57,311 bases of DNA, taken from positions 1 to 57,311 of the forward strand of contig JACVGW010000009.1 of the NCBI GenBank assembly GCA_018992565.1. The letters are read 5' to 3'. The position numbers are program-made. The stretch's first letter is position 1; the number at the start of each line of letters is the position of its first letter. Source of the stretch: Theionarchaea archaeon (GTDB lineage: Archaea; Methanobacteriota_B; Thermococci; Methanofastidiosales; SZ-28-30). Positions 33,001-51,000 of the stretch are shown in pieces.

Positions 33001-36000
33001 ACTCCCTCGTCATGGATAATGCGTCTCATCTCATCTCTATATCCCTTGTTTGTTATAGCGATAAACCGCCACGGCTGCAGGTTTCCACCACTTGGCGCCA
33101 GGGAAGCTGCGTGAATCATTTTTTCAATATCTTTTCTGGGCACAGGATCGGACTTGAATCGCCGGATGCTTCGCCTTTCACGTATGACAACTTGAAGATC
33201 CATATAGACACCTACGAAGACACATCACTCCCAGTGCCGCTTTGTTGACCTGTGATATTCTGAAGAGTGATAGAGCTCCAGCAATCCACGTATCCGTAAA
33301 TGAATTGTGGTCTCCATCTTGGGCACAAGAGGTACTCGACAGAATCCAGATGCATTCATATAGGTTTGCCATACTTCAAGAGCAGTTACTTTTGAGGTGG
33401 AGCCCATGAAAGGACTAGTCTTTGATCCACGCAGGATACATCCCCTGTGAGACCCTGCGCTCTTCTGCCGGCTCTGCTTATCCGTTCTCACGCACACAGA
33501 GACTCTCTCCCGGATGAGTCGCCGTTTTTCCATGACGTTACCATGAGCACAGCCTGACTCCCACGTAATTTCAGCAGTTAATTTCCAAAAAAAACGACCT
33601 TTTATCCCTGAAAACTCATATAAACTTTCCTGACAAGAAGTCACATCTATGTGCTCTGTAATAAGAGGTGAAAACATGAAACCTTCGGACATAAATGCAG
33701 ACAAGGAGTATCTAGCATGGGATGAGAACTGCATCTGGTTGTGTAGAGAAAATGATGCTATCATTACGAGAATCCATTCAATTGGAGCGCAGCTCACCGT
33801 GAGGGTCAATGCAGAAGGGGTAAGCCTCTGGAAATTGTGTGATGGAACTCGGACTCTTGAAGACATCATTACTTTCCTGGAAGATGAGTACTATACCCCA
33901 CGTGAAATCCTGATACGAGACGTGGCATGTGCAGTGGAAGCTCTTTCAGGAATGGGATTGATTGTCACGAGAAAGGAAAAGAAGCAGTCTTTCCAGCATA
34001 TCTACAGTGTAGAAAACCATGTACGCTGGGCAGATGATGTAATACTCAGAGAAGAGGATGGAGAACTCATATTGATGAACCTGAGTACCAGTCATGTATA
34101 TGAGTTGCCTCATAAATTCCTGCCTATACTAGAAGAATGCAAAAAAGGCCACACAATAGCAGAAATCCAGAATCAGGTGGGAGAAGGGTGTGATGTAGTG
34201 AACTACGTGCTTGAATATCTGGACAACCTTGGTCTGATTGTTGTCAATTCCCAAGAGTGACTATCATGAGAGTCAGTCTTTTCACACAGCTTTTGAAGAT
34301 GGATGAAGGGAGGTATCTTCTTCTCAATCCCGTCTCTGGGAACATACGTGTTGTAGATAATGAAGTCGCAGACTTCCTTTCAGAATATAGTGAGACAGGA
34401 TTGGATGGAGAGAGAATTGAAGGGCGGTTACTGGAAATACTCAAAAGAGAGGGGTATATCACTGATTTTACTGAAGAAGAGGAGAAAAATAGAATACTAG
34501 ATGCAAGTAGTGCTGTATCACAACGTCCTGTTTATGCGCATGCGATTATCATCACCTATAGATGTAACCTTGAATGTTCATACTGCATCAACAGTTCTTT
34601 GCTCGGTAGCGCTCCTTCCTGGCTGAATAAGAGAATCTCCAGAGATTCTGTTGACAAGGCCTTCGCCGTCATGAAGGATATGAAGGAAAAAACGGTAAGA
34701 CGTCATCCCATTTACGTGACAGGAGGGGAGCCCCTCCTTCCAGAAAACAGAGCGATTGTGGAGTATATACTGGATCTTTCTGCGCATTCAGGGGACAAGG
34801 TAGCTGCAAACACCAATGGATATTACCTTGCTCAATATGCTGATCTCTTTGAAAAGTATGGGACCTTCACCATGGCGGGAGTCACGCTTGATGGCCCCCC
34901 CACTGTGCACGACAGAAGAAGGAAGACAGGACAGGGCCCGGGTTCCTTCTGGAGAATCGTTGAAGGAATTGAGGCCATCAGGCCCCTTTCAATACATGTA
35001 GGCATTCGGGTCAATGTTGATAAAACGAATATTGATGCTCTTCCCGAACTTGTTGCCTTTTTTGAAGAGCGCGGATGGGCAGACGACAAGCATTTCTCGT
35101 TTTGTGTGTGCAGAGTTCTCAGGACAGGTACTCCACATGATGCCTGTCTCCTGACTCCGCTCGAGGCCATACAGAAGATAATTACCATGCATACAGAAGG
35201 TGTGCTACCTCGGTACATGAAATATGAATGTTCTTACAGCAACCCCGGGACTCTCTGGGGCACCTTGCAGGGAAAAGGACCGCTTCGTCCCCGATTGTAC
35301 TATTGTCCGGGTCTCGGTGAGACCTTCATATATGATCCTCATGGTGATATCTATGGTTGTCCACAGCTGGTGGGAAATCCGGAATACAGAATCGGAACAT
35401 ATGCCCCTCACTTCAAGCTGGAGCCCTTTCTTGATACGCTTAAGGCGAGGACGCCGTTGAACATGGCTGAATGCAGGGAGTGTACGTACGCTCTCTTATG
35501 TGGCGGAGGATGTGGCTACAATGCCCACATTGAACATGGCTCTTTCATGTCACCATATTGCGAGGAAACTGAGGCCTTCCTCACGTACTGGGTCCCCTTC
35601 TACCTCAAAAGACTCATTCAGTAGTTGAAAGCAGTCAAGCGACGAACATGGCAGAGGTATCACAGAGACCCTGGGAAGCTGCGTACAGTAAGGGAGTAGG
35701 CATAGTGGAGAGACCTGCGTTTCTTACCTATCTGGCAGCTGAGATGATGAAGAGGGAAACCCTCAAGAGCGTACTGGATATTGGCTGTGCCGCAGGCAGA
35801 AATTCAGTCTTCCTGGCGAGAGAAGGATTTGATGTCGTGGGCATTGAACCACAGTCAACTATTCTGGAAGTAGCACGCAGCAAAGTATCTGATGAGGGTG
35901 CAAAGCCACGGCTTCTGCTGGGAGACCTGGTTGATCTTCCCTTCAAGGAGTCATCATTTGATGCTGTCCTGTGTTTATATGTCCTCATGTTCCTCCCAGT

Positions 36001-48000: not shown

Positions 48001-51000
48001 CTCTGAGAACCTCATCCCCCAACAAGAACTGCAGGTCTTCTTTTTTCAGGTTATGCATAAAATTGTAGCAACCTCCTGGTGTATGATGGCGAACTGGCGA
48101 GAGGTAGATCATATTGTCTCTCTGATCCCATCCTTTCTCGTGGGCAAATTCCATAAAACTGGGCAATGTCCTCACTGTGGAATGATCAATATTGACTCTC
48201 ACATACACAGTAAAGCCTGCTTCTGCGAGCTGATCTATAGATTCAACAATCTGGCAAAAAGAACCAGTTCCATCAGCTCTTTTCTTCCTCCTGTTGTGGA
48301 TTTCCTCTATTCCATCTACTGTGATTTGGAGTGATGTGATCTTGCTCTCAAGGAGGAGAGGGAGAAAGAGGCTGCTCTCCAATCCATTGGTTACAATAAT
48401 GAAGGATTTATCACAGCGCGTTCCTCTTGTCAGGATGTACTCGATGAGTTCATAGTTGCTTGAGATGAGAGGTTCTCCACCCAGTAAATGTATGGGTGCT
48501 CTTGTATGAGGATTCAGAGTTTCCATTGCCTTGAAAGCTGCATCCACCTGCGAATGAGTCATTTTTCGCTGTAACCAGGGTTCATCTCGTGTGAAGACAG
48601 ATGAAACATAGCAGTAGTCACACCGCATGTTGCAGTCATACGTGGGTATAAGAGCAAACAGTGTGTGGTCTCTGTGCAGACTTTGAATTGATTCCAGGCT
48701 CTTGAATGCTTTTTCAGTTTCCTCTTTTGGAGAGAGTTCTGTGAGAAACCCCTGGGAAACGAGAGCAGACACTTCTTCTGAAGTCTCTTGTTCAGGATTC
48801 ACACCATTGAGGATTCGCAGTATTTCCTCTGGGCCAAAGAGGATAGCCCCTGTGAATGTATTAACAAAAAGAAATTCTCTGTTCTGGAGAGGTATCACCA
48901 GGACGTATCGACTACGTCTGAGCAAGGTCCTCCCTCCGTGATCTATATAGATGGGGGACGACCACATTGAGAATTTCATGATATTCCAAGCAGAGAGGCC
49001 TGTCAAGTGACCCATATTTCTCCAGAGCTGCAAACCCACACCCCCCACCACATAAGAGAGCATACTTGCATTCTTTACATTCTGGAATGGTGAATATCGT
49101 TCTTTCTCTCCATTGACTGTATTTTTCATTCCACTTTAGTTCAGGATCGTACCTGCCGACTCTTCCAGCTTCGTCACCCACATGTTCAAAACAGACGTAG
49201 AGATCTCCGAAGGGATCATAAATAATCATGTCGTCGTTTGCCTCGCAGTACCAGAAGCGGGGAGCCCCTAATTCTCCCTTGAGGAAGAGCCTTTCAAGTA
49301 CTGCGATTCCTTTGTGGTCAAAAGAAACGGTGTTCAACTCTTGGTGAGAAGTTGCGTTGGAAACAACAGCCGTATACACATCCTTCCTTTGCATGGAATG
49401 CTTGTAAGTGCCACAGGTTTTCTCGAAGATAGGTGAGAAGTGCATGGAAAGGAGAGGATTATCCACCCATCCTTTTTTCCTGGCGAAATCTACTACTTCA
49501 GAGAGGGCACCAAGATTTTCACTATCAAGATTTGTCCTGAGAAAGACTCTCAGATTCTCCTTGAGTGCTGCGTCTATTCCAGCTGCAATCTGGTCAAAAG
49601 ATCCAGTACCATCCTTTCTTATTCGTCGTTTATCATGGAGGTTCTTTGGTCCGTCAATGGTGACCTGAAGGGTGACATTCCGGCCCCGCAGCAGGTCCAT
49701 ATACTGACATAGTGATACCCCATTTGTGAGTATGATGAAGGAATGTCCAAGCGATTCTCCCCTTTCCAGGATTTCTTCGACTGCCGGCATAGTTTTTTCC
49801 ATCAACGGCTCTCCACCATACAGGGCGATTCTACCTTTCTCAGTTCCATCAACTTCAGCAATGGCCTCGAATACCTTATCAATAAGTTCCTGACTGATGA
49901 CTGTGCTCAACCACTGGGTTCCTTTTTTCCGGAGATCTGAAAGAAAGCAGTATGGGCACACCAGGTTGCAATCATAGGTTGGAATGATCATATGTGTATG
50001 CAGGTTCTTCCTGTTTTCTGTAAACCTCTCATAGAGAGTTCGTATGTCTTCGAATTCCTCTTCAGGAGATGCTTGCGTTATATGTCCTCTCTCATGAAGG
50101 AAGTTGAGGATTGAAGGCTCCCCCTGGGAGAGGTCACTCTGAAGCAGGTTGATAACATCAGTGTCCACAACATCAACAGCTCCTGTTAAGGAATTGATGA
50201 GCAGGTATTCATCCTCATCTGCCTGTACTGCAATGCAGTATGTGCTCATTCTCATGATATTCACCTTTTTCTTCATCCAGCCCGCACCAGTCCTACGGAA
50301 AAGACATTTACGAGGAGTTCTTTCATGAAAAGTCAACCTATTATTATCCTTGCAACAATAAACATCAGAGAATACTTATATGTATTTCCAGGGCACGAAA
50401 TGTATTTATTTTCTGGCAAAGGATCAAGAAGGGTTCCCTGTGATCTAATTCGTATCTCCACCTGGCATCCGTATTCACCTCCAGGTATGAGAAAGAAGTG
50501 CCAGGGCCCTATCCTTTCACTGCATGTTCCCGTCCCGGGGTCTGGAGGAGACAGTCTGATGTAGGACATGAGGCATATGAACAAGTTGTATTGTCACTAT
50601 CCTCATTGGTTCTGTTCGTGTGTTCAACTTGGATTCTTTCATTCTCAGGACGTAGTCCTCACACCCTTTGTGTGGAACTGCTCCCTTCTACAGCTCCCAC
50701 CTTTTCCAACCCCCCTTGCATGGGTTGTCCTTCTTCTATTGACATAGTTAGATTCTCATTCGATAAGTTTATAAGGTCTTGATAAGAATATTCTTAACGA
50801 ATGAGAATGATCTCACAAAACAGAATGTTTTAAAGGAGGACTGAGCGTTAATGGATACAAGTAAAGAAGTCAGGAGGAGACATTACCGTGCGATCTACGA
50901 ACTTTTCTGGTCAGAGAACGCCCGAATCCACCTGAAGGATATTGCATCGAGACTCCGGGTCAATCCCCGTACGGCACGGAGAAGAGTAGAAGAAGCTTTT

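What a model noticed while it worked through the whole genome (the two positions that open the first line are those of the whole stretch)
33676..50569. Genus-specific burst of radical-SAM/SPASM peptide maturases with at least nine Cys-rich precursor families
This 2.8-Mb genome carries 67 SPASM-domain hits (110 radical-SAM genes, 16 B12-rSAM, 15 PqqD genes, 8 TldD/PmbA protease pairs), most of them in ~30 small clusters next to short, mostly uncalled or unnamed Cys-rich ORFs that fall into at least nine unrelated leader/core families; its two congeners have 35 and 42, the other 31 genomes of the order 0-5. I read it as the densest ribosomal-peptide (ranthipeptide/sactipeptide-like) factory yet seen in an archaeon, built by a recent paralogue burst. 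New would be that an MCR-less, peptide-fermenting sediment archaeon invests ~3% of its genes in modified peptides, and a set of new archaeal leader-core families to mine.
Evidence so far: TIGR04085 six-frame hits per genome: 67 here, 35 and 42 in the genus, 3 in the sister genus, 0-5 in 30 others. Pfam/NCBIfam tables: 110 Radical_SAM, 77 SPASM/Fer4_12-type, 16 B12-binding rSAM, 15 PqqD (5 fused). blastp clustering (>=30% id, call 41): one family of 29 paralogues of ~450 aa, one of 24 (270-520 aa), 16 B12-rSAM, 4 of ~600 aa (TIGR03975-like RiPP C-methyltransferase, 148 bits < cut-off 282). The 450-aa type is nearest CefB (Cys-every-fifth), TIGR04463, PapB, SCIFF maturase and PDB 5wgg, none over cut-off. 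Precursor families: (1) MKAISLNKKLW...C-rich: C13 41108-41272, 47242-47409; C29 9269-9421; C30 26636-26776; C97 6233-6355; C15 1442-1585; profile finds 6 here, 1 in a congener, [...]
(Added by a program. Inside this text positions count along the whole contig: contig position 1 is position 1 of the stretch shown here. "Call 12" and the like, gene names such as g00115 and contig names such as C1 are that model's own, and its searches are not shown. The text may have been shortened before it was handed on; [...] marks where a part breaks off. The agent that wrote the report below was given it as the finding of a first reader that could run no searches.)

Follow-up and report, generated by a model that had tools for sequence, protein, structure and literature searches.

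The report
Archaeal island of Cys-peptide radical-SAM maturases
A 19-kb accessory island in a sediment archaeon packs eight radical-SAM/SPASM peptide-modifying enzymes, two double leader-binding proteins and three short cysteine-rich precursor peptides, part of an unusually large but not recent expansion of a known kind of peptide-maturation system.

Summary
Window 33.6-50.6 kb carries 8 radical-SAM/SPASM genes, 2 tandem-PqqD (double RRE) genes, one SAM methyltransferase and 3 short Cys-rich ORFs.

The short ORFs look real. They have a Shine-Dalgarno site, a conserved NKKxW leader over a variable core, 13 unannotated relatives in public data, and a predicted leader-RRE complex (0.68 against 0.01 for the best control).

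New here:
- Window ~31.7-50.75 kb is an island, absent from the syntenic site of a congener.
- Two otherwise 35%-identical maturases share an 85%-identical RRE, encoded by a 213-nt inverted repeat. I read this as gene conversion.
- The double-PqqD is fused to the short maturase type in a congener.

"Recent burst" is not supported. Paralogues (median 36%, maximum 72% identity) are older than the species split, where orthologues are 75-92% identical. "Densest archaeon" is supported within the phylum and by a published antiSMASH table, but it was not tested across Archaea.

The kind of system is known (ranthipeptide/sactipeptide-like). The chemistry and products are unproven.

The parts
31690..50750 (.). 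Accessory island (about 19 kb): nitroreductase gene, cluster A, HTH paralogue 1 and cluster B. It is absent from the syntenic site of congener G032. Boundaries are approximate.
   Evidence: Window 22000-31474 aligns to G032:C23:47583-57083 at 78-81%, and window 31535-31686 to C23:58812-58963. Window 50754-56913 aligns to C23:59552-63911 at 75-79%. Between the two flanks G032 has only an aldo/keto-reductase-like ORF and about 1 kb of spacer.
33649..34260 (+). Cluster A: tandem-PqqD (double RRE) protein, 203 aa
   Evidence: PF05402 at 39.8 bits, cut-off 23.4. It aligns over its full length with the other double-PqqD proteins.
34257..35624 (+). Cluster A: RRE-fused radical-SAM/SPASM maturase, 455 aa
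   Evidence: PF04055. TIGR04085 hit at 35313-35561. Best named family CefB, 137.5 bits against a cut-off of 600. Full Cys motifs present.
35648..36349 (+). Cluster A: class I SAM-dependent methyltransferase, 233 aa
   Evidence: Methyltransf_25 at 71.5 bits and Methyltransf_11 at 68.6 bits. No NCBIfam family over its cut-off.
36372..37538 (-). Cluster A: short radical-SAM/SPASM enzyme without a fused RRE, 388 aa
   Evidence: PF04055 and PF13186. TIGR04053 at 141 bits (cut-off 395) and TIGR04340 at 137 bits (cut-off 400). 52% identical to 43086-44357.
37522..38907 (-). Cluster A: RRE-fused radical-SAM/SPASM maturase. The ORF runs to 38922; the likely start is the ATG at 38907, behind GGAGGAG.
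   Evidence: PF04055. TIGR04085 hit at 37630-37875. Sequence read.
38944..39093 (-). Precursor 3 (49 aa): MKIKEVGKTW... leader and a C-terminal core with 8 Cys. It sits directly upstream of the maturase.
   Evidence: ORF listed. AAGGTGA lies 6 nt before the ATG. One public homologue, 92% identical, with all 8 Cys kept. No NCBIfam family.
39476..40447 (-). HTH paralogue 1 (323 aa), transcribed divergently from cluster B
   Evidence: HTH_24 at 21.8 bits, just under the 21.9 cut-off. 53% identical to 50851-51816.
41108..41272 (+). Precursor 1 (54 aa), family 1: leader MKAISLNKKLW..., core GCGGGGCYFSPCPPWIWPCNFF
   Evidence: GAGGTGA lies before the ATG. Predicted to bind the next gene's RRE through residues 1-12.
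41609..42961 (+). Cluster B: RRE-fused radical-SAM/SPASM maturase, 450 aa. The ORF opens at 41321; the homology starts at 41609.
   Evidence: CefB at 168 bits (cut-off 600), aligned from ORF residue 97. A profile built with it matches PDB 5wgg/5why over the full length, E 8.5e-31.
41600..41812 (+). Inverted repeat, arm 1: encodes the RRE of maturase 41609-42961
   Evidence: 213 nt, 92% complementary to 50052-50264. N-terminal domains are 85% identical over 78 aa, against 35% over the remaining 345 aa.
43086..44357 (-). Cluster B: short radical-SAM/SPASM enzyme without a fused RRE, 423 aa
   Evidence: PF04055 and PF13186. TIGR04340 at 157.7 bits, cut-off 400. 44% identical to the C-terminal part of the G032 fusion protein.
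44547..46082 (+). Cluster B: RRE-fused radical-SAM/SPASM maturase. The ORF is 511 aa; the true start is probably later.
   Evidence: PF04055. TIGR04085 at 51.2 bits and CefB at 155 bits aligned from residue 44.
46229..46855 (+). Cluster B: tandem-PqqD (double RRE) protein, 208 aa
   Evidence: PF05402 at 66.1 bits. Model has pLDDT 86.3 and pTM 0.84, with two repeated strand/helix units at residues 8-103 and 119-203. Best PDB match is the lasso leader-binding protein TbiB1, 5v1u, TM 0.80.
47242..47409 (+). Precursor 2 (55 aa), family 1: same leader, different core GCGSIPCPSLCILHCYPHMCIHF
   Evidence: GGAGGTGA lies before the ATG. The leader-coding DNA is 79% identical to that of precursor 1 over 117 nt.
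47567..49129 (-). Cluster B: RRE-fused radical-SAM/SPASM maturase. The ORF is 520 aa and its start is uncertain, since it overlaps the upstream gene.
   Evidence: PF04055. TIGR04085 hit at 47672-47923. Sister to C30_27986 in the tree, support 100.
48912..50255 (-). Cluster B: RRE-fused radical-SAM/SPASM maturase, 447 aa as called in public data
   Evidence: P0001 is 100% identical and 447 aa; P0002 is 80% identical, from another MAG. CefB at 146 bits, cut-off 600.
50052..50264 (-). Inverted repeat, arm 2: encodes the RRE of maturase 48912-50255
   Evidence: Public assemblies break at both arms, at 41629-41755 and 50109-50235, in the 4 of 4 runs laid.
50851..51816 (+). HTH paralogue 2 (321 aa) at the right edge of the island, conserved in G032
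   Evidence: G032:C23:59552-61359 aligns at 75%. The orthologous 322-aa ORF is at L006:1595-2563.

Best explanation
The region is two adjacent RiPP-type maturation cassettes inside a 19-kb accessory island of an archaeal chromosome.

Cluster A (33.6-39.1 kb) holds one 49-aa precursor, two RRE-fused radical-SAM/SPASM enzymes, one short RRE-less radical-SAM/SPASM enzyme, a double-RRE (tandem PqqD) protein and a SAM methyltransferase.

Cluster B (41.1-50.3 kb) holds two precursors with the same NKKxW leader but different Cys-rich cores, four RRE-fused enzymes, one short enzyme and a second double-RRE protein.

Proposed mechanism:
1. The N-terminal 12 residues of the leader dock as a strand on the winged-helix RRE at the enzyme's N-terminus.
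2. The core enters the radical-SAM active site. 5'-deoxyadenosyl radical chemistry, helped by the two auxiliary SPASM clusters, cross-links Cys sulfur to a carbon of another residue (sactionine or ranthionine type thioethers).
3. Several different maturases act in turn on one peptide.
4. The free double-RRE protein presents the peptide to the short enzymes, which lack an RRE.

What is shown: domain content, Cys motifs, conservation of the precursors, synteny, the gene-conversion signature, and the Rosetta-stone fusion. What is inferred: actual binding (model only), thioether chemistry, the order of steps, leader removal, export and biological role.

Evolution: whole cassettes were duplicated before the species of the genus split, the cores diverged, and the cassettes were then kept or lost (or exchanged) differentially. 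Within cluster B the RRE-coding segment of two divergent maturases has been homogenised, which keeps both matched to the shared leader.
For: Domains:
- 8 of 8 window enzymes hit PF04055 and TIGR04085.
- All 6 window enzymes of the 450-aa type have CxxxCxxC, Cx8-17Gx4C and CxxCx5Cx3C.
- 10 Cys are invariant in a 29-sequence alignment.
- The nearest solved structure is 5wgg/5why over the full length, N-terminal domain included, E 8.5e-31.
- The nearest named families are all Cys-peptide maturases: CefB, TIGR04463, PapB, SCIFF. CrpC, a member of TIGR04463, was shown to install ranthionine on a Cys-rich substrate (PMC13692751: abstract and section 8 read).

Precursors:
- A GAGGTGA Shine-Dalgarno site lies 5-8 nt upstream in 5 of 5 family-1 ORFs.
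- There are 13 public relatives, with N7, K8, K9 and W11 invariant over variable cores.
- An orthologous precursor lies upstream of the orthologous maturase pair in G032.
- Precursor 3 is 92% conserved in another MAG, with all Cys kept.

Binding (model only): ipSAE 0.68 against 0.01 for the best of 3 controls. That mark was reached by 116 of 157 solved complexes and 2 of 215 mismatched pairs. The runs agree in at least 28% of their contacts, and the partner's pLDDT is at least 38. Contacts are leader residues 1-12 with enzyme residues 18-56. Solved RRE-leader complexes exist, so this pass may partly reflect likeness to them.

Double RRE:
- The model and its PDB matches to TbiB1, other lasso B1 proteins, PqqD and ThcOx.
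- In G032 a 616-aa protein joins a double PqqD (residues 30-212, E 2e-21) to the short enzyme type (residues 254-613, 44% identity, E 2e-102).

Gene conversion:
- A 213-nt inverted repeat, 92% complementary.
- 85% identity in the N-terminal domain against 35% in the rest. This is the only long-alignment outlier among all 903 pairs of the 43 own and G032 members of the 450-aa family.

Island.

Age.

Real DNA: 20 DNA runs from 7 studies hold 40900-44400 at 0.94 or more of the sampled words. 10 of those runs may be the source of this DNA.
Against: - No product, no expression data and no RNA run.
- No protease or transporter was found among the ORFs scanned in window 33.2-52.6 kb, so leader removal and export are unexplained.
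- None of the eight enzymes reaches the curated cut-off of any named maturase family, so the chemistry cannot be transferred by membership.
- The second-nearest structure, TigE (8vpo), makes cyclopropyl groups rather than thioethers.
- The cores lack a conserved acceptor motif that I could recognise.
- About a third of the Cys-rich small ORFs near such genes could be chance.
- The complex used my own shallow alignments (8 and 5 rows), and the peptide's own fold is uncertain (pLDDT 39-45).
- The tree is a FastTree with several long branches.
- The outside sequences in it were found through two peptide patterns and are a biased sample.
Confidence: 0.75

Rival explanations
1. Same enzymes and peptides, but the products are not secreted antagonistic or signalling peptides. 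They would be intracellular: redox cofactors (as PQQ and mycofactocin are made from small peptides by a PqqD-type chaperone plus a radical-SAM/SPASM enzyme), or metal- or sulfur-handling Cys peptides.
For: - No exporter or leader protease was found among the ORFs scanned in window 33.2-52.6 kb.
- The short enzymes score against mycofactocin maturase (140.6 bits) and the NirJ/Ahb-type families, and they pair with a free PqqD.
- The paper on CrpA/CrpC notes that the Crp genes are up-regulated on pyrite (PMC13692751, section 8).
Against: - Cofactor systems are normally single-copy with an invariant core. Here there are 38 clusters, and the cores differ between paralogues and between orthologues.
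- The island is dispensable in a congener.
- All scores are far below the cofactor families' cut-offs.
Confidence: 0.2
2. One reading: the clusters arose by a recent, genome-specific burst of gene duplication.
For: 67 hits here against 35 and 42 in the congeners and 3 in the sister genus. Many paralogous cassettes have the same layout.
Against: - No paralogue pair exceeds 72% identity, and the median nearest-paralogue identity is 36%.
- Orthologues in G032 are 75-92% identical in 17 of the 22 reciprocal-best pairs.
- Starred tree nodes place the extra copies outside the own/G032 orthologue pairs, for example (C13_41321,(C29_9585,G032)).
- 23 public clusters at 46-55% identity and one at 80% exist for one window enzyme. 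Each paralogue therefore has its own orthologue group.
Confidence: 0.07
3. The island was acquired by this species by lateral transfer from a related archaeon, rather than inherited and then lost by the congener.
For: - A clean presence/absence in conserved synteny.
- Slightly lower G+C inside the island (0.43-0.45 in 38-42 and 44-50 kb) than on the left flank (0.46-0.50 in 22-32 kb).
- Another MAG carries clusters A and B on one contig at 80-92% protein identity, while the two congener representatives lack them.
Against: - No integrase, transposase, tRNA or direct-repeat boundary was seen among the ORFs scanned or in the repeat search of window 33-52 kb. I ran no tRNA scan.
- The genes' nearest relatives are paralogues in the same genus.
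- The relationship of the other MAG to this genome is unknown.
Confidence: 0.35
4. Artefact: mis-binned contigs or spurious small ORFs inflate the picture.
For: The genome is a MAG of 154 contigs, 88% complete. 14 of the 71 rSAM/SPASM ORFs lie on contigs shorter than 10 kb. Background Cys-rich ORFs exist.
Against: - Eight genes lie on one 57-kb contig alongside family-B DNA polymerase, CysRS, archaeal FBPase and POR genes.
- The rSAM ORFs are spread in proportion to contig length, and G+C is equal.
- The congeners show the same trait.
- Assemblies of two laid runs (X7, X15) cover most of the cluster; in X7 the pieces cover nearly all of 33.6-51.9 kb, and X7 may be a source of this DNA.
Confidence: 0.03

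Closest known systems
CteB / SCIFF-type thioether maturases (PDB 5wgg, 5why; NCBIfam TIGR03974)
   Same: The same three-part build: N-terminal RRE, radical-SAM barrel and a 7-Cys SPASM domain. It is the best solved-structure match over the full length (E 8.5e-31). The substrate is a Cys-rich peptide encoded next to the enzyme.
   Different: Scores of 68-100 bits against a cut-off of 425, so these are not members. The precursors are not SCIFF peptides (no NCBIfam hit). Several different maturases serve each precursor. That CteB is the TIGR03974 type enzyme is recalled, not taken from a call.
CrpC/CrpA of Methanococcus voltae (TIGR04463), the characterised archaeal ranthionine-forming SPASM enzyme
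   Same: An archaeal, RRE-fused radical-SAM/SPASM enzyme acting on a Cys-rich substrate with a leader-like N-terminus. TIGR04463 is the second-best family for 4 of the 6 long window enzymes. Paper: abstract and section 8 read.
   Different: Scores of 84-150 bits against a cut-off of 525. CrpA is a large repeat protein (a 17-residue motif repeated 10 times), whereas the substrates here are 40-55-aa peptides. Crp has one enzyme per cluster.
CefB, Cys-every-fifth maturase (NF038107), and PapB ranthipeptide maturase (NF047865)
   Same: CefB is the top-scoring named family for all 6 long window enzymes, at 110-168 bits. PapB scores 94-132 bits.
   Different: The cut-offs are 600 and 340, so membership fails. 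The cores here have irregular Cys spacing, including CCC runs, rather than a Cys at every fifth position.
PqqD/PqqE and MftB/MftC; ACGX-system enzyme TIGR04340
   Same: A short RRE-less radical-SAM/SPASM enzyme working with a separate PqqD-family peptide chaperone. The short window enzymes score best on TIGR04340, TIGR04053 and mycofactocin maturase.
   Different: All scores are below the cut-offs (137-158 against 400; 141 against 265). The chaperone here has two RRE units in one chain, and in a congener it is fused to the enzyme.
ThcOx (cyanobactin oxidase, PDB 5lq4/8pz5), which matches both halves of the double-PqqD model
   Same: Foldseek aligns about 220 columns of the double-PqqD model to it.
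   Different: ThcOx is an FMN oxidase with no radical-SAM partner. Sequence identity is 11-13%, and rmsd over the long alignment is poor (12-13 A). That ThcOx has two RRE-like domains is recalled, not taken from a call.

Membership tests
Radical-SAM/SPASM peptide maturases (PF04055 + TIGR04085) | CxxxCxxC cluster motif and a Radical_SAM domain over cut-off | tested here: met
   8 of 8 window genes hit PF04055 at 53-83 bits, cut-off 29.5. 29 of 29 genome members of the 450-aa family carry the motif.
Radical-SAM/SPASM peptide maturases (PF04055 + TIGR04085) | SPASM domain with the Cys ligands of two auxiliary 4Fe-4S clusters | tested here: met
   8 of 8 window genes have a TIGR04085 match over 27 bits. 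Seven SPASM Cys are invariant in A2. 24 of 29 family members, including all 6 long window genes, have the strict motifs.
Radical-SAM/SPASM peptide maturases (PF04055 + TIGR04085) | A leader-binding RRE, fused or separate, and an adjacent precursor with a leader and a core | tested here: met
   The N-terminal domain aligns with that of 5wgg. The modelled leader/RRE contact scores 0.68 against 0.01 for the best control. Two PqqD genes are present, and three precursors.
Ranthipeptide / sactipeptide (RiPP classes) | Thioether from Cys sulfur to the C-beta/C-gamma (ranthionine) or C-alpha (sactionine) of another residue in the mature peptide | not testable with these tools
   No product is known. 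This needs mass spectrometry and NMR of the modified peptide.
CefB (NF038107) | Score at or above the curated cut-off of 600 bits | tested here: not met
   109.7-168 bits for the six long enzymes.
TIGR04463 (CrpC family) | Score at or above 525 bits | tested here: not met
   84.1-150 bits.
PapB ranthipeptide maturase (NF047865) and SCIFF maturase (TIGR03974) | Score at or above 340 and 425 bits respectively | tested here: not met
   PapB 93.8-132.2 bits; SCIFF 68-100.3 bits.
ACGX-system radical-SAM (TIGR04340), for the two short enzymes | Score at or above 400 bits, with an ACGX-repeat peptide partner | tested here: not met
   136.6 and 157.7 bits. None of the 19 candidate precursors hits any NCBIfam precursor family.
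Cyclopropylglycine synthases (TvgB/TigE) | A GYW motif whose Tyr ligates auxiliary cluster I (PMC10878394, passages read) | tested here: not met
   0 of 29 members contain GYW. Cys is kept at the first auxiliary-cluster position. The site was not aligned directly to TigE.
PqqD / RRE (PF05402) | A PqqD domain over cut-off and a winged-helix three-strand/three-helix fold | tested here: met
   39.8 and 66.1 bits against 23.4. The model matches TbiB1 at TM 0.80-0.82 and rmsd 2.8 A, and its secondary structure shows two such units.

The most novel reading that the evidence does not exclude
The genus runs a combinatorial peptide-diversification system. A small set of leader families (here NKKxW) serves as an address. 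RRE modules are kept matched to that address by gene conversion, even between maturases whose catalytic domains are only 35% identical. Whole cassettes are duplicated, shuffled and exchanged as islands. Many different radical-SAM chemistries are thereby applied to fast-changing Cys-rich cores. This would be an archaeal counterpart of the hypervariable bacteriocin or RiPP libraries of bacteria, and a natural toolkit of interchangeable leader/RRE/catalyst parts.
Probability: 0.3. Interest if true: 0.75.

Novelty: new member of a known kind. Interest (0 to 1): 0.55.

Why it matters
Very little is known about modified peptides of archaea. The survey I read (PMC12144867: passages and section 6) counts 7731 gene clusters in 3451 representative archaeal genomes and says that functional characterisation of the predicted clusters remains limited.

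A genus with some 38 radical-SAM/SPASM clusters per 2.8 Mb would give four things:
- A set of undescribed leader/core families.
- A predicted 12-residue recognition tag.
- A double-RRE chaperone with a natural fusion partner.
- A clean example of RRE-leader co-maintenance by gene conversion.

Each of these can be tested by heterologous expression. The finding also corrects the evolutionary picture: old cassette duplication and island turnover, not a recent burst.

Tried and rejected
- The search of earlier findings was not open.
- The search for related loci with the single protein 48912-50336 found no relative in genome contigs.
- The 29-row alignment A2 was too diverse for pattern search. 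The 8-row A3 worked, but it returned only distant relatives at 25-31% identity: 50 bacterial records and one titled Bathyarchaeia.
- I tried to survey another archaeal phylum through that Bathyarchaeia-titled record. Other archaeal phyla could not be reached, so 'densest archaeon' stays open.
- No RNA holder was listed for 40900-44400, so nothing can be said on expression.
- In the laid contigs, runs X3 and X9 gave no cover of about 41.8-50.1 kb. Only 59-68% of those runs was read, so no conclusion follows. Two short joints (sides of 20-21 letters) were ignored as likely paralogue cross-matches.
- I looked for a precursor upstream of 33649 and upstream of 50336 and found none convincing.
- The 33225-33869(-) and 50333-50584(-) ORFs have no family hit and are probably not genes.
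- The HTH 322-aa family is not specific to rSAM clusters. Of its 17 paralogues, only the two in the window lie within 600 nt of an rSAM/SPASM ORF (two more lie 5-8 kb away).
- The profile of family 1 does not find the C15 ORF.
- Cys-richness alone is a weak criterion.
I left them out and used four referenced sequences.

Full report
**What is there**

Window 33.6-50.6 kb holds eight ORFs with a Radical_SAM domain. All eight also have a SPASM match over the TIGR04085 cut-off.

- Six are about 450 aa long, with roughly 95 residues ahead of the CxxxCxxC motif: 34257-35624+, 37522-38922-, 41321-42961+, 44547-46082+, 47567-49129- and 48912-50336-.
- Two are shorter and begin almost directly with the radical-SAM core: 36372-37538- and 43086-44357-. 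They are 52% identical to each other.
- Two 203/208-aa PqqD-family genes lie at 33649 and 46229, and a class I methyltransferase at 35648.
- There are three short Cys-rich ORFs. Those at 41108-41272+ and 47242-47409+ share the leader MKAISLNKKLW. The third, at 38944-39093-, sits directly upstream of a maturase.

The rest of the contig carries ordinary archaeal chromosomal genes: family-B DNA polymerase, CysRS, type V FBPase, POR, and Hdr/Mvh-like genes.

**The genome-level counts**

- TIGR04085 six-frame matches: 67 here.
- Across the order of 34 genomes: 35 and 42 in the two congeners, 3 in the sister genus, and 0-5 in the other 30.
- Radical_SAM 116 (113 over cut-off), PqqD 19 and PmbA/TldD 15.
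- No McrA match, in a genome 88% complete.
- blastp clustering gives 71 rSAM/SPASM-like ORFs, in a family of 29 (~450 aa) and a family of 21 (short type).
- These ORFs lie in 38 clusters on 37 contigs, and the window's eight genes are the largest concentration.
I see no sign of mis-binning.
- The names that sources give to the nearest public proteins are 'Theionarchaea archaeon' and 'Candidatus Methanofastidiosia archaeon'. This is the only basis for my taxonomic reading.

**Are the short ORFs real?**

- All five family-1 ORFs have GAGGTGA 5-8 nt before the start codon.
- A profile of the five finds one more in congener G032, upstream of the orthologous maturase pair.
- The public protein collection holds 13 clusters of this family, including the window's own. 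All are unnamed or called hypothetical, and none has a Pfam domain.
- Across them N7, K8, K9 and W11 are invariant, as is a Gly-Cys junction, over cores that vary in length and sequence.
- Precursor 3 has a single public homologue, 92% identical, with all eight Cys kept.
- Elsewhere in the genome, four families are conserved next to orthologous enzymes in G032. These are the C4 pair, C29, C154 (36 of 38 residues identical), and a repeat-core peptide with CALEVQPTF repeated four times here and more often in G032.
- None of the 19 candidates hits an NCBIfam family over its cut-off.
- Cys-richness by itself is a weak criterion. There are 22 small ORFs with at least 4 Cys in the last 30 residues near the rSAM genes, against a mean of 8.1 (maximum 16) near random genes.

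**What the enzymes resemble**

- The long type scores best on CefB (110-168 bits; cut-off 600). Next come TIGR04463 (84-150; 525), PapB (94-132; 340) and the SCIFF maturase (68-100; 425). All of these modify Cys-rich peptides, and none is reached.
- A profile of the family matches the solved structure 5wgg/5why over its whole length, N-terminal domain included, at E 8.5e-31. The next match is 8vpo.
- 8vpo is TigE, a methyl-cyclopropylglycine synthase whose GYW tyrosine ligates auxiliary cluster I (PMC10878394, passages read). None of the 29 paralogues has GYW, and all keep Cys there.
- CrpC of Methanococcus voltae, a TIGR04463 member, installs ranthionine cross-links on a Cys-rich protein (PMC13692751: abstract and section 8).

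Thioether formation is therefore the best guess for the chemistry. It rests on likeness and on the Cys-rich cores, not on family membership.

**Leader recognition**

A complex model of maturase 41609-42961 with precursor 41108-41272 scored 0.68, against 0.01 for the best of three controls.

- That mark was reached by 116 of 157 solved complexes and by 2 of 215 mismatched pairs.
- The runs agree in at least 28% of their contacts, and the peptide's pLDDT is at least 38.
- The confident contacts join leader residues 1-12 to enzyme residues 18-56.
- Residues 1-12 are exactly the conserved NKKxW stretch. The enzyme side holds the invariant G25, D28, V30 and D31 of the N-terminal domain.
- Solved RRE-leader complexes exist, so the pass may partly reflect likeness to them.

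**The double PqqD**

- The 208-aa protein folds with confidence (pLDDT 86, pTM 0.84) into two repeated strand/helix units.
- Its best PDB matches are leader-binding proteins: TbiB1 (TM 0.80-0.82), another lasso B1 protein, PbtF's RRE and PqqD.
- Its paralogues always sit beside rSAM genes.
- In G032 a 616-aa ORF joins a double PqqD (residues 30-212, E 2e-21) to the short enzyme type (residues 254-613, 44% identity, E 2e-102).

I read this fusion as evidence that the free double-RRE protein serves the short enzymes, which have no RRE of their own.

**A gene-conversion signature**

- Arms 41600-41812 and 50052-50264 form a 213-nt inverted repeat, 92% complementary.
- They encode the N-terminal domains of two maturases on opposite strands. 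Those domains are 85% identical over 78 residues, while the remaining 345 residues are 35% identical.
- Among all 903 pairs of the 43 own and G032 members of the 450-aa family, this is the only such outlier with a long alignment.
- More generally, the enzyme lineages next to family-1 precursors keep their N-terminal domains more alike (43-55%) than their catalytic parts (33-35%).
- The two precursors' leader-coding DNA is 79% identical over 117 nt.
- Public assemblies of four runs all break at the two arms. This fits a repeat.

**Age and origin**

- Nearest-paralogue identity is 36% at the median and 72% at most.
- I fetched 16 G032 stretches, covering the 28 of its 35 SPASM places that one search listed. 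Among the 22 reciprocal-best pairs, 17 are 75-92% identical, 3 are 59-64%, and 2 (~30%) are not credible.
- In a FastTree of 29 own, 14 G032 and 51 outside sequences, 50 of the 51 outside (bacterial) sequences form one clade.
- In the same tree the extra own copies sit outside starred own/G032 orthologue pairs.
- Cluster B and a cluster on contig C30 are paralogous gene for gene.
- The window's eight enzymes have no orthologue in the fetched stretches of G032. A whole-genome search with one of them (48912-50336) found none in G032 or G033 either.
- Another MAG carries both clusters on one contig at 80-92% identity.
- The flanks of the island are collinear with G032 contig C23 at 75-81% DNA identity. 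Window ~31.7-50.75 kb is replaced there by an unrelated reductase gene and a spacer.

The clusters therefore form an accessory island. Whether it was gained here or lost there remains open.

**How unusual is it?**

- I could not reach other archaeal phyla.
- A published antiSMASH survey reports 7731 clusters in 3451 representative archaeal genomes (PMC12144867, section 6).
- Its supplementary table lists 71 rows for this order. Four genomes of one family have 9, 17, 8 and 13 regions, and 36 of those regions are typed 'ranthipeptide'. The word occurs 182 times in the stored copy, which was cut when stored.
- The main text never mentions the order.

The richness is thus already visible in public data, though not described, and standard rules already classify such clusters as ranthipeptide-like. 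I did not establish which of those genomes, if any, is this one.

**Verdict**

This is a real and striking case of a known kind of system. It has undescribed precursor families and three features worth testing: a 12-residue leader tag, a double-RRE chaperone, and RRE homogenisation. The 'recent burst' reading is wrong. The chemistry, the products and their role are unproven.

Noticed in passing
window 39476-40447 (-) and 50851-51816 (+): Two 53%-identical, ~322-aa proteins with a weak HTH_24 match flank cluster B and are transcribed away from it. The family has 17 paralogues in the genome, most of them not near rSAM genes. Its nearest ESM Atlas clusters are archaea-only 'hypothetical protein' groups; the top one has 1210 members and scores 0.96.
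   Followed up: partly
G000:C128:10549-10725 (-) (L094:3549-3725) and G032 L027:4883-5110 (-): A precursor whose core is the unit CALEVQPTF repeated four times here and more often in the congener. It lies upstream of two orthologous maturases, so repeat number changes in frame.
   Followed up: partly
G032 L026:5302-7152 (+): A 616-aa natural fusion of a double PqqD with a short radical-SAM/SPASM enzyme. It sits in a row of three further maturases on that contig.
   Followed up: yes
window 53926-55366 (-): A putative membrane sensor (Sensor/HAAS domains) plus a PadR regulator. The pair is absent from the syntenic site in G032; part of it matches elsewhere in that genome (G032:C5, 67%). This is a second small indel next to the island.
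   Followed up: no
window 40972-40985 and 47104-47117: Both family-1 precursors have the shared word AATCATATAAAC about 125-135 nt upstream of the start codon, which may be an archaeal TATA-like promoter element. T-rich runs follow their stop codons (41280-41300).
   Followed up: no
G000 contigs C18, C31, C99, C116: Tandem PmbA/TldD protease pairs lie within 1-2 kb of other radical-SAM genes that are not in the SPASM set. These may be a different peptide-maturation system.
   Followed up: no
window 41629-41755 and 50109-50235: Logan contigs of all four laid runs end at the two arms of the inverted repeat. Short-read assemblies of this island are systematically broken there.
   Followed up: partly
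L041 (record titled Candidatus Bathyarchaeia archaeon): The phylum-level sample drawn around this record's genome contains many genomes of 4-8 Mb, which suggests the record is placed in a bacterial phylum. Its maturase groups with bacterial sequences in the tree.
   Followed up: no
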